Origin: an uncultured Eubacteriales bacterium
GTDB taxonomy: Bacteria > Bacillota > Clostridia > Oscillospirales > CAG-272
Length of the DNA: 64,000 bases
Reading direction: 5' to 3'
NCBI GenBank assembly: GCA_934434925.1
Contig: CAKSAC010000004.1
Coordinates: 67,388-131,387, forward strand
Shown here: piece after piece, positions 49,962 to 51,903 of the stretch
Numbering within the stretch: the stretch's first letter is position 1
Layout of the letters: the number at the start of each line of letters is the position of its first letter
Program-made: the position numbers and the translations under genes
The notes under the pieces: generated by a model
Seen by the model: only the letters and a program-made list of their open reading frames with translations
Told to the model about the DNA's origin: nothing
Databases searched by the model: none

Positions 49962-50242
49962 TATTCGTTGAAGTGTGCGTCGGCAGTTCCTGCCACCTGA
50001 AAGGAGCTCCCCGGATTGTGGAGTTGCTCCGGGAGAAAATCGAAAAAGAAAATTTGGACGGCGAAATTGTGCTGACCGGGGCTTTTTGCCGCGGTCGATG
50101 CAATCGCATCGGCGTGACCGTCTCGGTGGACGATGAAGTGTATACGGGTGTCACGCCCGAAGGGTTCGGCGATTTTTGGGAAAAAACGGTGTTGCCCGCC
50201 ATGGAGAAAGCAAAGGAGAAGGAAACGTGTCGGAATGTTTAA
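49958..50242 (+). CDS. thioredoxin-like [2Fe-2S] ferredoxin, copy 2
   Basis: 94 aa. CVGSSC ... CRGRC. ATGA overlap with copy 1. Confidence 0.75.
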   Translation: MIFVEVCVGSSCHLKGAPRIVELLREKIEKENLDGEIVLTGAFCRGRCNRIGVTVSVDDEVYTGVTPEGFGDFWEKTVLPAMEKAKEKETCRNV

Positions 50243-51903
50243 CGCTGAAAAAATCGAACTGCAAAAACTGCTATAAATGCATAAGACATTGCCCGGTGAA
50301 ATCGATTCGGTTCTCCGGGAACCAAGCGCATATCATCGGAAACGAATGTATCCTTTGCGGCCATTGCTTTGTGGTTTGTCCGCAAAACGCCAAGCAGATC
50401 GTGGACGAGACCGAAAAGGTGAAGGTCCTGATCCAGTCCGGCGCGCCCGTCTATGCAAGCGTTGCCCCCTCTTTTATTGCCAACTACCCCGGCGTGGGTA
50501 TCGGCGGCATGAAGAAGGCTCTTCAGAAACTCGGGTTTGCGAATGCGGAAGAAACCGCGCTGGGCGCAACGATCGTCAAAAAGGAGTATGAACGGATCCT
50601 TTCCGAAAAAACAAGGGATATTGTCATTTCTTCCTGCTGTCATTCGATCAATCTGCTGATTCAGAAATATTTTCCCTCCCTTCTCCCCTGCCTTGCCGAT
50701 GTCATGTCTCCCATGCAGGCACACTGCGCCGAAATCAAAAAGAAACACGCGGGAGCAAAAACCGTTTTCATCGGGCCGTGCGTTTCCAAAAAAGACGAGG
50801 CCCAGCATTACGAAGGGATTGTGGACGCGGTTCTGACCTTTGAAGAACTGACCGAATGGATGAAGGCGGAACATATTGTTTTGGAGCCGGATATGGACGC
50901 AACCGAAAAGAGCCTCGCCCGCTTCTTCCCGACGACCGGCGGGATTTTGAAGACCATGGAACAGAACGCGCCGGGTTATACGTATCTGGCCATTGACGGC
51001 GTTGAAAGCTGCATGGCCGCGCTGAAAGAAGCGGAACGCGGGAATATACACAAATGTTTTATTGAAATGTCCGCCTGTGTCGGCGGTTGCGTCGGCGGCC
51101 CCGTCATGGAAAAATATCATCGCTCGCCGGTAGGCGATTATCAATCCGTCGCAAATTACGCCGGAAAGAAAGATTTTGACATTGCACAGCCGGACCCGCT
51201 TGAAATCAGAAAACACTTTGAGCCGATCGAACGGAGAAACCGGATGCCGTCCGAAGAAGAAATCAGGGAAATCCTCGGGAAAATGGGGAAAAACCGACCG
51301 GAAGACGAATTGAACTGCGGCTCCTGCGGCTACAATACCTGCCGGGAAAAAGCCATCGCAATATACCACGGCAAAGCCGAGATTTCCATGTGTCTGCCGT
51401 ATCTGAAAGAAAAAGCCGAGAGCTTTTCCGACTGTATCGTGTCCAATACGCCGAACGGGCTGATCGTTGTCAATGACGCGCTGGAAGTACAGCAAATCAA
51501 TCCGGCGGCGCTCAGAATCCTGAATATCCGGCAGGCCTCGGACGTTCTCGGCGATCAGGTGGTGCGCATTCTCGACCCCAAGCCTTTTGCGGAGGTCTTA
51601 GAAAGCAAAAGAAGCATCCGCGACCACAGAACCTACCTTGCGGAATACAATCGGTATGTGGAAGAGACCGTAATCTATGACGCAACCTATCACATGCTCC
51701 TTTGCATTATGCGCGACGTCACCGAAGAGGAGACCGAGCGGGAAAAACGCATGAAACAGCACAACCAGACCGTGGAGACCGCCGACAAAGTGGTCGATAA
51801 GCAAATGCGTATCGTGCAGGAGATCGCTTCCCTGCTCGGAGAGACCGCCGCAGAAACCAAGATCGCCTTAACCAAACTGAAGGAGAGTTTTTCCGATGAA
51901 TGA
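50227..51903 (+). CDS. hydS: sensory-type [FeFe] hydrogenase-like protein with C-terminal Cys4 motif and PAS domain (HydS type)
   Basis: GTG 50227 after an AAGGAGAAGGA RBS. Two ferredoxin-type CxxCxxCxxxCP motifs. H-domain motifs SSCCHS / GPCVSKKDE / [13 protein letters not shown]. Then C-x2-C-x4-C-x16-C ([9 protein letters not shown]..C) and a PAS-like segment. Confidence 0.85.
   Translation: [558 protein letters not shown]

What the first reader, a model, noticed from the sequence alone, without database searches (positions are those of the whole stretch)
50227..51903. HydS carries specific H-cluster-environment substitutions relative to the HydA paralog 1.2 kb downstream
The two hydrogenase-like proteins can be compared side by side in this window. 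Motif 1 is SSCCHS in HydS versus TSSCCPAF in HydA. Motif 2 is GPCVSKKDE versus GPCTAKKAE. Motif 3 is [13 protein letters not shown] versus EGMACVGGCIGG, so the Met next to the cluster Cys becomes Ser. HydS additionally has C-x2-C-x4-C-x16-C (CGSCGYNTC...C) and then a PAS-like segment and a helical tail ending at the PP2C overlap. From what I recall of work on Thermotoga HydS, these are the features reported for low-activity sensory group-C [FeFe] hydrogenases.
Basis: partly seen in the sequence, partly recalled or inferred. Interest (0 to 1): 0.6.

Follow-up and report, generated by a model that had tools for sequence, protein, structure and literature searches.

The report
Sensory [FeFe]-hydrogenase HydS, R. 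albus type
This gene is a close relative of the putative hydrogen-sensing hydrogenase HydS of Ruminococcus albus, in the same nine-gene neighbourhood (a LysR regulator gene plus the eight-gene operon), so it is a correctly spotted but already known kind of hydrogen-sensing switch for fermentation.

Summary
Window 50227-51903 (+) is an intact 558-aa [FeFe]-hydrogenase-like protein. It has two N-terminal [4Fe-4S] motifs, an H-domain, a Cx2Cx4Cx16C module, a PAS-like fold and a 60-residue C-terminal helix. Its stop overlaps the start of a SpoIIE/PP2C phosphatase gene by 8 nt. A group B catalytic hydrogenase (HydA) starts 1.2 kb downstream.

All quoted motifs are present. The residue-level reading needs correction:
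- The proton-relay cysteine (CpI C299) is retained, unlike Ala in Thermotoga HydS. The motif-1 change is Pro301 to His.
- Gly replaces Met353 in both HydS and HydA, so this is not HydS-specific.
- Met497 to Ser is HydS-specific.

The locus matches R. albus 7 plasmid pRUMAL01 gene for gene: LysR, Rex, AdhE, kinase, two [2Fe-2S] ferredoxins, HydS, PP2C, HydA2. HydS is 69% identical and carries the same motifs. That cluster is published as H2-regulated.

Verdict: a new member of a known kind, group C3 "phosphatase-linked" sensory hydrogenase. Two modules are still unexplained: the HydS C-terminal helix motif [15 protein letters not shown], the most conserved stretch of the family, and the unannotated C-terminal domain of the PP2C.

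The parts
45464..45498 (+). Terminator-like hairpin after the LysR gene; upstream boundary of the operon
   Evidence: 14-bp stem followed by a T tract
45516..45542 (+). Conserved dyad TTATATCGATA-N6-ATACCGATAT upstream of rex; candidate operator, binding protein unknown
   Evidence: Nearly identical in R. albus pRUMAL01. The ATATCGATA[AT] core is found with at most 1 mismatch in 13 of 15 LysR-rex intergenic regions. It is not a Rex box.
45602..46201 (+). rex, redox-sensing repressor
   Evidence: NCBIfam NF003994, 207 bits against a cut-off of 130
46229..48943 (+). adhE, bifunctional acetaldehyde-CoA/alcohol dehydrogenase
   Evidence: NF010378, 1388 bits against a cut-off of 951; 74% identical to R. 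albus AdhE
48955..49704 (+). APH/RIO-like phosphotransferase (putative protein kinase)
   Evidence: Pfam APH E=9e-14; HGDFSPQN catalytic loop; 74% identical to the R. albus orthologue
49716..49961 (+). Thioredoxin-like [2Fe-2S] ferredoxin 1 (Cx4C...Cx3C)
   Evidence: PF01257 E=5.5e-7; Cys pattern read
49958..50242 (+). Thioredoxin-like [2Fe-2S] ferredoxin 2
   Evidence: PF01257 E=6e-8
50227..51903 (+). hydS, group C3 putative sensory [FeFe]-hydrogenase (558 aa)
50248..50391 (+). HydS N-terminal 2x Cx2Cx2Cx3C ([4Fe-4S]) motifs
   Evidence: Fer4 family hits; C12, C15, C18, C22, C41, C47 and C51 invariant and C44 nearly invariant
50563..50610 (+). Helix corresponding to the CpI proton-pathway helix. 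Y121 aligns with E279, I124 with E282, K128 with R286.
   Evidence: MSA and BLASTP against HydA agree. One HMMER pairwise alignment is shifted by 2 residues.
50629..50646 (+). H-cluster motif 1, SSCCHS. C137 aligns with the C299 relay Cys, C138 is the cluster ligand, H139 replaces P301.
   Evidence: CCH is present in 79 of 80 orthologous loci
50695..50697 (+). A157 at the CpI S319 position (proton pathway lost)
50773..50799 (+). H-cluster motif 2, [9 protein letters not shown]. G183 replaces M353; C185 is a ligand; K188 and E191 are conserved.
51064..51102 (+). H-cluster motif 3, [13 protein letters not shown]. S282 replaces M497; C284 and C288 are ligands.
   Evidence: Ser in 78 of 80 orthologues
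51316..51393 (+). Cx2Cx4Cx16C module for a C-terminal [4Fe-4S] cluster
   Evidence: PF04060 E=2.2e-10; weak similarity to the [4Fe-4S]-binding N-termini of CoFeSP and RnfB
51427..51720 (+). PAS-like domain
   Evidence: Sub-threshold PAS_9 and PAS hits; PAS topology in the AF2 model
51787..51882 (+). Invariant C-terminal helix motif [32 protein letters not shown]
   Evidence: Most conserved segment of the family: 0.76 mean top-residue frequency against 0.46 for the H-domain. No Pfam or PDB match.
51896..53068 (+). SpoIIE/PP2C Ser/Thr phosphatase (390 aa). Residues about 226-390 form an unannotated, conserved alpha/beta domain.
   Evidence: PF07228 E=1.9e-15 over residues 32-220. The C-terminal domain has no significant match.
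53081..54502 (+). hydA, group B monomeric (ferredoxin-type) [FeFe]-hydrogenase; orthologue of R. albus HydA2
   Evidence: TIGR04105, 574.5 bits against a cut-off of 450; 74.5% identical to the R. albus protein; E279, E282, S319, C299 and M497 retained
54657..54690 (+). Terminator-like hairpin; downstream boundary of the operon
   Evidence: 15-bp stem followed by a T tract

Best explanation
hydS encodes a group C3 (phosphatase-linked, M2f architecture) putative H2-sensing [FeFe]-hydrogenase. It is the orthologue of R. albus HydS.

Proposed mechanism:
1. The H-domain binds a normal H-cluster. All four Cys ligands, K358, E361 and the P231/S232 equivalents are present.
2. The pocket is retuned. 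Gly replaces Met353, Ser replaces Met497, His replaces Pro301, and the group A proton pathway is broken at E279, E282 and S319. Turnover should therefore be slow, and the redox state of the clusters should track the H2 partial pressure.
3. That state is passed through the Cx2Cx4Cx16C [4Fe-4S] module and the PAS domain to the invariant C-terminal helix.
4. The helix controls the translationally coupled SpoIIE/PP2C phosphatase.
5. The phosphatase, opposed by the APH-like kinase encoded upstream, sets the phosphorylation of a still unknown regulator.
6. The outcome is control of the same eight-gene operon (rex, adhE, kinase, fdx, fdx, hydS, pp2c, hydA). At high H2 the cell makes AdhE (ethanol as electron sink) and the ferredoxin-dependent group B hydrogenase.

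Shown here: the sequence features, the orthology, the operon structure and the conservation. Taken from published work on relatives: low activity, H2-dependent expression, and the regulatory phenotype of hfsB deletion. Inferred: the flow of signal from helix to phosphatase to regulator.
For: Architecture and ligands.

Orthology and synteny with the R. albus 7 pRUMAL01 cluster: nine genes in the same order, 50-76% identity, and the same SSCCHS / GPCVSKKDE / EMSAC motifs.

In R. albus the eight-gene cluster is 111-fold down-regulated at low H2 in co-culture, and H2 sensing by the group C enzyme with its phosphatase is proposed (PMC6776011).

Deleting the HydS homologue hfsB in Thermoanaerobacterium raises adhE expression, ethanol yield and hydrogenase activity. 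That is a regulatory phenotype, not a catalytic one (PMC5707799, PMC11837493).

TmHydS, which carries G177 and S267, has low activity and an altered H-cluster redox behaviour (PMC10055695).

Fdx-HydS-PP2C is conserved in 80 species-level loci and in relatives only 34% identical. The hydS and PP2C genes overlap in every case examined.

The pocket signature is fixed across 80 orthologues.

Gene spacing is tight (from a 16-nt overlap to a 27-nt gap), and only two strong + strand terminators bracket rex to hydA.

The neighbouring HydA keeps the full proton pathway and passes the group B model.
Against: No activity, spectroscopy, expression or phosphorylation data exist for this protein.

The proton-relay Cys is retained, so this clade could be more active than TmHydS.

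The phosphatase substrate is unknown. No Rex box was found at the operon promoter.

A 2026 study on the group D TamHydS found the C-terminal cluster had a negligible effect on catalysis and questioned earlier signalling hypotheses (PMC13104023).

Register in the E279/E282 helix is uncertain by 2 residues in one alignment. With that shift E282 would be retained as E122.
Confidence: 0.7

Rival explanations
1. HydS is a working catalytic subunit of a multi-protein 'Hfs-type' hydrogenase. Together with the two [2Fe-2S] ferredoxins and HydA it contributes to H2 production, and the PAS/PP2C parts only fine-tune it.
For: All H-cluster ligands and the C299-equivalent Cys are retained. It is co-transcribed with two ferredoxins and HydA. 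Deleting the whole hfsABCD operon lowers H2 production in Thermoanaerobacterium (PMC11837493). TmHydS and TamHydS do catalyse H2 interconversion, though slowly (PMC10055695, PMC8163306).
Against: Deleting hfsB alone increased hydrogenase activity and adhE expression (PMC5707799). Expressing hfsD alone restores the phenotype (PMC11837493). E279, E282 and S319 are lost in HydS but kept in HydA. The PAS domain, the invariant helix and the coupled phosphatase are conserved even where no HydA gene follows (L083).
Confidence: 0.12
2. HydS mainly reports the cellular redox state (reduced ferredoxin or the [2Fe-2S] partners) through its four FeS clusters and the PAS domain. The H-cluster only equilibrates that pool with H2, so the sensed quantity is the ferredoxin/H2 disequilibrium rather than H2 itself.
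For: Two dedicated thioredoxin-like [2Fe-2S] ferredoxin genes directly precede hydS in most of the 80 loci, and one is present in distant relatives. The N-terminal 2x[4Fe-4S] wire is invariant. rex, an NADH sensor, is in the same operon.
Against: Nothing here tests electron exchange. The R. albus fermentation and transcription shifts track H2 level (PMC6776011). This reading overlaps largely with the main model.
Confidence: 0.13
3. HydS is a hydrogenase-like scaffold without a [2Fe] subcluster, like eukaryotic Nar1/NARF, acting purely as an FeS/PAS regulator.
For: It diverges strongly from group A: only 73 bits to TIGR02512 against a cut-off of 406.
Against: The four H-cluster Cys are invariant. 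K358, E361, P231, S232 and P324 equivalents are conserved. TmHydS and TamHydS incorporate the [2Fe] cofactor and show H-cluster spectra (PMC10055695, PMC8163306).
Confidence: 0.03

Closest known systems
Ruminococcus albus 7 HydS (WP_013483411.1) and its cluster on plasmid pRUMAL01 (NC_014824.1, 137.9-147.9 kb)
   Same: Same nine genes in the same order and on the same strand: LysR, Rex, AdhE, phosphotransferase, two (2Fe-2S) ferredoxins, HydS, SpoIIE phosphatase, HydA2. HydS is 68.8% identical over 558 aa, PP2C 75.9%, HydA 74.5%, AdhE 74%. Identical [15 protein letters not shown] and EMSAC motifs. The same 8-nt hydS/PP2C overlap and the same dyad upstream of rex.
   Different: In this window the neighbours are housekeeping genes (dnaX, queA, fba, nadE), whereas in R. 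albus the cluster is on a megaplasmid. Rex, LysR and Fdx2 are only about 50% identical. Fdx2 is 11 residues longer here.
Thermotoga maritima HydS (TmHydS), the biochemically characterised group C enzyme
   Same: N-terminal FeS clusters, H-domain, Cx2Cx4Cx16C module and PAS domain. Gly at M353 (Tm G177; here G183). Ser at M497 (Tm S267; here S282). The 46-residue spacing between the C299 and M353 positions is identical. Loss of E279, E282 and S319 (PMC10055695).
   Different: Cys, not Ala131, at the C299 position. Phe234, not Tyr223, at the F417 position. The TmHydS sequence was not retrieved here, so the comparison rests on the residue numbers given in the paper.
HfsB of the hfsABCD operon (Thermoanaerobacterium saccharolyticum and T. 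thermosaccharolyticum)
   Same: A PAS-containing [FeFe]-hydrogenase followed by a Ser phosphatase (HfsC) and a ferredoxin-linked hydrogenase similar to R. albus HydA2 (HfsD). A genetic link to adhE expression and ethanol yield (PMC5707799, PMC11837493).
   Different: Here adhE and rex lie in the same operon. The genes upstream of hydS are [2Fe-2S] ferredoxins and a kinase rather than the HfsA described there. No direct sequence comparison was made.
[quoted passage not shown]
   Same: N-terminal clusters, a Cx2Cx4Cx16C module and loss of the group A proton pathway (PMC8163306, PMC10407848).
   Different: Group D lacks the PAS domain, has Ser at M353 and Leu at M497, and has its own E252/E289 proton pathway. 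The window protein has a PAS domain with Gly and Ser at those positions, so it is not group D.
Group B [FeFe]-hydrogenases (CpIII; HydDB 'colonic-type'): the family of the neighbouring HydA
   Same: HydA passes TIGR04105. It has the six-residue TS(S/C)CCP motif and the F-x-G pair in place of T351/M353, as described for CpIII (PMC12138974). The HydS H-domain also scores best against this model (190 bits, below the cut-off).
   Different: HydA has Ser where CpIII has the supernumerary Cys. HydS lacks the group B N-terminal extension and adds the FeS, PAS and helix modules.
[NiFe] regulatory hydrogenase HoxBC-HoxJ-HoxA (Ralstonia/Cupriavidus)
   Same: The same logic: a low-activity hydrogenase coupled through a PAS-containing partner to a phosphorylation switch that controls hydrogenase genes (as summarised in PMC5707799).
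   Different: An unrelated metal site and fold. It signals through a histidine kinase and response regulator, not a PP2C and APH-like kinase.

Membership tests
Group C (M2f) putative sensory [FeFe]-hydrogenase (HydS) | H-domain with the four H-cluster cysteines | tested here: met
   PF02906 E=3.5e-48. C138, C185, C284 and C288 align with CpI C300, C355, C499 and C503 and are invariant in 122 family representatives.
Group C (M2f) putative sensory [FeFe]-hydrogenase (HydS) | [quoted passage not shown] | tested here: met
   [12 protein letters not shown] and [12 protein letters not shown]. Seven of the eight Cys are invariant and the eighth nearly invariant.
Group C (M2f) putative sensory [FeFe]-hydrogenase (HydS) | C-terminal Cx2Cx4Cx16C FeS motif | tested here: met
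   C364, C367, C372 and C389; PF04060 E=2.2e-10
Group C (M2f) putative sensory [FeFe]-hydrogenase (HydS) | PAS domain after the FeS motif (distinguishes group C from group D) | tested here: met
   PAS_9 and PAS hits at E about 1e-4, below the Pfam cut-offs. The AF2 model (pLDDT about 90 in this region) has PAS topology at 411-497. Weak matches to CitA and DcuS PAS domains.
Group C (M2f) putative sensory [FeFe]-hydrogenase (HydS) | Small residue (G/S/T) in place of Met353 and a non-Met residue at Met497 | tested here: met
   G183 and S282. Note that G353 is shared with the group B paralogue.
Group C (M2f) putative sensory [FeFe]-hydrogenase (HydS) | Group A proton-transfer residues (C299, E279, S319, E282, R286) not conserved | tested here: inconclusive
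   E279 to Y121, E282 to I124, S319 to A157 and R286 to K128, but C299 is retained as C137. Cys occurs in 41 of 122 representatives here and in about 17% of sensory sequences in the literature (PMC10055695). One alignment shifts the helix by 2 residues.
Group C (M2f) putative sensory [FeFe]-hydrogenase (HydS) | Low H2 turnover and a stabilised reduced H-cluster state | not testable with these tools
   Needs purified, matured protein.
HydDB group C3, phosphatase-linked | Co-transcribed Ser/Thr (PP2C) phosphatase | tested here: met
   The SpoIIE/PP2C gene overlaps the hydS stop by 8 nt. The same arrangement is seen in 80 loci and in relatives 34% identical. The class definition is in PMC5037454.
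R. albus-type H2-regulated adhE-hydS-hydA2 cluster | Gene content and order rex-adhE-kinase-fdx-fdx-hydS-pp2c-hydA2, with LysR upstream | tested here: met
   The full order is also found in 13 of 80 loci, and in partial form in most of the rest, many of them truncated by contig ends.
R. albus-type H2-regulated adhE-hydS-hydA2 cluster | Expression responds to H2 partial pressure | not testable with these tools
Shown only for R. albus (PMC6776011).
Group D (M2e, TamHydS-like) | No PAS domain; hydroxyl residue at M353; E252/E289 alternative proton pathway | tested here: not met
   A PAS domain is present and G183 sits at M353.
Group A prototypical [FeFe]-hydrogenase | TIGR02512 membership; TSCCPxW, MPCxxK and ExMxC motifs | tested here: not met
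   73 bits against a cut-off of 406. The motifs are altered.
Group B monomeric [FeFe]-hydrogenase (for the HydA paralogue) | TIGR04105 above the curated cut-off | tested here: met
   574.5 bits against a cut-off of 450, covering profile positions 1-461

The most novel reading that the evidence does not exclude
The signal output of this class may not be the PAS domain as such. It may be the 32-residue C-terminal helix motif (V-I-D-K-Q-M-R-x-[AV]-Q-E-I-A-[SG]-L-L-G-E-T-T-A-E-T-K), the most conserved part of the protein, which matches nothing in Pfam or the PDB. In this reading the helix docks onto the equally conserved, unannotated alpha/beta C-terminal domain of the translationally coupled 390-aa PP2C, forming an H2-gated phosphatase complex. 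The R. albus-type subclade would add a fixed Cys-Cys-His motif (relay Cys kept, His beside the [4Fe-4S]H ligand) that tunes the cubane potential or provides a private proton route.
Probability: 0.3. Interest if true: 0.5.

Novelty: new member of a known kind. Interest (0 to 1): 0.25.

Why it matters
Group C sensory hydrogenases are thought to decide, in gut and rumen Clostridia, whether electrons leave as H2 plus acetate or as ethanol. That choice affects methane output and gas production. This window adds no new principle. It does show that the complete R. albus regulatory cassette is conserved gene for gene in many uncultured gut Clostridia, with a fixed active-site signature (Cys-Cys-His, Gly353, Ser497). 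It also points to two conserved, uncharacterised modules, the HydS C-terminal helix and the PP2C C-terminal domain, as the places to look for the still untested signal-transduction mechanism. Having the paralogue pair side by side gives a natural design for residue-swap experiments.

Tried and rejected
- Rex operator search with TTGTGAA-N6-TTCACAA and the clostridial variant. No site lies near the operon. The only good match (31306-31325) sits in front of a Gp49/HigB-like toxin gene, and the number of matches equals chance expectation.
- AlphaFold2 of the PP2C, to identify its C-terminal domain. The alignment was too shallow (84-91% identity), mean pLDDT was 52 and the model was unusable, so no fold search was run.
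- Profile and sequence searches of that domain against the PDB and Pfam. Only an insignificant SIS-like hit appeared (E=0.05).
- Idea that the HydS tail is a helix-turn-helix, based on invariant Ala-x3-Gly and a resemblance to sigma-70 region 4 recalled from my own knowledge. No HTH family matched any of 24 tails, and the AF2 model shows one continuous helix. Not supported.
- Idea that the tail is a remnant of a chemoreceptor (MCP) signalling helix. No HMM support.
- Direct alignment to TmHydS. No representative with the TmHydS numbering was among the 150 returned, so the mapping uses published residue numbers.
- Zheng et al. 2014 (PMC4248817) is not held. Its content is cited only through papers that quote it.
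- The fold search returned only group A structures (about 24% identity). No group C structure appeared among the PDB matches.
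Full report
**What is at the coordinates.** Window 50227-51903 (+) is an intact ORF. It starts at GTG, 5-14 nt after an AAGGAGAAGG ribosome-binding site. It encodes 558 aa, the same length as its many homologues. Pfam finds a ferredoxin-type 2x[4Fe-4S] region (residues 8-55), the [FeFe]-hydrogenase H-domain (PF02906, residues 74-292, E=3.5e-48) and the PF04060 'putative Fe-S cluster' module (362-391, E=2.2e-10). It also gives sub-threshold PAS hits over 404-500.

An AlphaFold2 model built on 35 family members is confident (mean pLDDT 89.4). 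It shows a PAS-type pattern of two strands, helices, then three strands at 411-497, followed by one uninterrupted helix at 499-557. Foldseek matches only group A [FeFe]-hydrogenase structures at about 24% identity, and no group C structure appeared among the matches. The hydS stop overlaps the ATG of a SpoIIE/PP2C phosphatase gene by 8 nt. The second hydrogenase gene starts 1178 nt downstream.

**Mapping the substitutions.** I aligned HydS, HydA, CpI residues 140-433 and 487-519 (taken from the HMMER alignments; numbering checked) and 122 full-length family representatives clustered at 50% identity.

| CpI position | HydS | HydA |
|---|---|---|
| C300, C355, C499, C503 (ligands) | C138, C185, C284, C288 | aligned Cys present (C275, C322, C432, C436) |
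| C299 (proton relay) | C137 | C274 |
| P301 | H139 | P276 |
| M353 | G183 | G320 |
| M497 | S282 | M430 |
| K358, E361, A230-P231-S232, S323-P324 | conserved | conserved |
| E279 | Y121 | E260 |
| E282 | I124 | E263 |
| S319 | A157 | S294 |
| R286 | K128 | K267 |

The four ligand cysteines are invariant across the family.

The register of the E279/E282 helix is the same in the MAFFT alignment and in the direct BLASTP of HydS against HydA. One HMMER pairwise alignment to a group A enzyme shifts it by two residues. With that shift E279 would be K119 and E282 would be E122. E279 is lost under either register.

The paralogue contrast is therefore as follows. HydA keeps the complete group A proton pathway and Met497. 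HydS loses the pathway beyond the first cysteine, replaces Met497 by Ser, and places a His beside the cubane ligand. Gly353 is common to both. The literature reports Gly353 for the group B enzyme CpIII as well as for TmHydS (PMC12138974, PMC10055695).

TmHydS is reported to differ from prototypical enzymes at C299 (Ala131), M353 (Gly177) and M497 (Ser267) (PMC10055695). Of the three motif differences listed in the finding, only Met497 to Ser is both HydS-specific and a reported hallmark.
- The motif-1 difference is Pro to His, not loss of the relay Cys. Cys is kept in 41 of 122 representatives here and in about 17% of sensory sequences in that paper.
- The motif-2 differences between the paralogues lie at T356, S357 and F360, not at M353.
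- The Cx2Cx4Cx16C motif and the PAS domain are exactly the published definition of the M2f / group C architecture (PMC8163306).

**What it is.** A tblastn search of plasmid records finds R. albus 7 pRUMAL01 with 68.8% identity over 99% of HydS. The annotated region there reads LysR, Rex, AdhE, phosphotransferase, (2Fe-2S) ferredoxin, (2Fe-2S) ferredoxin, [Fe-Fe] hydrogenase domain protein, SpoIIE phosphatase, 4Fe-4S dicluster protein. This is the same nine genes, in the same order and strand, as window 44435-54502. Pairwise identities run from 50% to 76%. R. albus HydS carries the same [17 protein letters not shown] and EMSAC strings.

HydA passes NCBIfam TIGR04105, 'monomeric [FeFe] hydrogenase', with 574.5 bits against a cut-off of 450. 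HydS scores best against the same model but far below the cut-off (190 bits), and only 73 bits against the group A model. HydDB calls PP2C-linked group C enzymes 'C3, phosphatase-linked (putative)' and group B 'colonic-type (putative)' (PMC5037454).

A scan of one genome per GTDB species found at least 594 loci encoding a relative. In the 80 best loci, Fdx-(Fdx)-HydS-PP2C-HydA is essentially universal where the contig allows. The kinase, AdhE, Rex and LysR genes are upstream in many. In those 80 orthologues the pocket signature is fixed: CCH in 79, Gly353 in 80, Ser497 in 78. Two relatives only 34% identical still have an overlapping SpoIIE gene of 390-392 aa and a [2Fe-2S] ferredoxin gene next to hydS, and one of them has no hydA downstream. 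The conserved core is therefore ferredoxin + HydS + PP2C.

Names attached to the closest proteins point to uncultured gut Clostridia ('Candidatus Borkfalkia', 'Acidiphilium sp. CAG:727', various Clostridia MAGs).

**Operon structure.** Gaps between the eight genes from rex to hydA range from a 16-nt overlap to 27 nt. The only strong + strand terminator-like hairpins are at 45464-45498, after the LysR gene, and at 54657-54690, after hydA. The eight genes probably form one transcript of about 9 kb. This matches the 'putative eight-gene cluster' reported for R. albus (PMC6776011).

Upstream of rex lies a dyad, TTATATCGATA-N6-ATACCGATAT (45516-45542). It is almost identical in R. albus and recurs in 13 of 15 LysR-rex intergenic regions. 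It is not a Rex box, and no Rex box lies near the operon.

**How it most likely works.** Published work on relatives supplies the functional evidence.
- In R. albus the cluster is 111-fold repressed when a hydrogen consumer keeps H2 low. The authors propose direct H2 sensing by the group C enzyme and its phosphatase (PMC6776011).
- In Thermoanaerobacterium, deleting the HydS homologue hfsB raises adhE expression, ethanol yield and hydrogenase activity. Expressing hfsD alone is sufficient for the phenotype (PMC5707799, PMC11837493).
- TmHydS and TamHydS have low turnover and stabilised reduced states (PMC10055695, PMC8163306).

On that basis I propose a slow hydrogenase whose cluster redox state reports H2. 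The state would be relayed through the C-terminal [4Fe-4S] module and the PAS domain to the C-terminal helix, and from there to the coupled PP2C. The APH-like kinase would oppose the phosphatase on an unknown substrate that controls the operon. The sequence, orthology and conservation steps are shown here. The activity and regulation steps are borrowed from relatives. The helix-to-phosphatase step is inference. [quoted passage not shown]

**What is not yet explained.** Across 122 representatives the most conserved stretch of the protein is neither the H-domain (mean top-residue frequency 0.46) nor the PAS domain (0.36). It is residues 521-552 of the terminal helix (0.76), with A534, L537, G538 and K545 invariant in the 35-sequence alignment. 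This stretch has no Pfam or PDB match. It is modelled with falling confidence (pLDDT about 60-75), as expected for a segment that needs a partner.

The PP2C is even more conserved than HydS: 76% identical to R. albus, and 84-91% among the top 120 hits. It carries a conserved alpha/beta domain of about 165 residues (GGTT, DLVTEGVIT, DGA, NPAHQN motifs) with no significant match. My structure prediction for it failed (pLDDT 52). These two modules are the obvious candidates for the signalling interface.

**Verdict.** It is a clear orthologue of a published R. albus gene in a published gene cluster, so it is a new member of a known kind and of modest interest. The useful corrections are three: the relay Cys is retained, Gly353 is shared with the group B paralogue, and the proton pathway is what really separates the two paralogues. 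The useful leads are the invariant C-terminal helix, the unannotated PP2C domain, and the fixed Cys-Cys-His signature of the R. albus-type clade.

Noticed in passing
window 51787-51882 (HydS residues 521-552): The C-terminal helix motif [32 protein letters not shown] is the most conserved segment of the whole HydS family, more so than the H-domain or the PAS domain. It has no Pfam or PDB match.
   Followed up: partly
window 52571-53065 (PP2C residues about 226-390): The phosphatase carries a strongly conserved alpha/beta C-terminal domain of about 165 aa (GGTT, DLVTEGVIT, DGA, NPAHQN motifs). It has no family or structure match. The best hit is an insignificant SIS-like one, and the AF2 model was unusable.
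   Followed up: partly
window 45516-45542: A conserved dyad, TTATATCGATA-N6-ATACCGATAT, lies between the LysR gene and rex. It is nearly identical in R. albus pRUMAL01 and present in 13 of 15 related intergenic regions. It is a candidate operator of the operon and is not a Rex box.
   Followed up: partly
window 54506-54616: An 18-bp tandem repeat (TCCCGAAAGTATGCCGTT, 6.2 copies, 88% matches) lies immediately after the hydA stop and before the terminator hairpin at 54657-54690. Its function is unknown.
   Followed up: no
window 54891-55310 (+): A PemK/MazF-type toxin gene (Pfam E=4e-37) lies just downstream of the hydrogenase operon. No antitoxin was looked for.
   Followed up: no
window 30888-31241 (-) and 31306-31325: A Gp49/HigB-like toxin gene in a low-GC patch. 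A near-perfect palindrome, TTGTCAATAGATTTTCACAA, lies 65 nt upstream of its start. It matches the Rex-box consensus with one mismatch but is more likely a toxin-antitoxin operator or a chance match.
   Followed up: partly
window 49716-50242: Two tandem minimal thioredoxin-like [2Fe-2S] ferredoxin genes (81 and 94 aa, Cx4C...Cx3C) overlap each other by 4 nt, and the second overlaps hydS by 16 nt. At least one such gene accompanies hydS even in relatives 34% identical.
   Followed up: partly
window 26624-28468, 31563-32774, 55407-56336, 57618-58364: Housekeeping genes (dnaX, queA, class II fructose-bisphosphate aldolase, NAD synthase) flank the cluster. It therefore appears chromosomal here, whereas the R. 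albus orthologous cluster is on a 420-kb megaplasmid.
   Followed up: no
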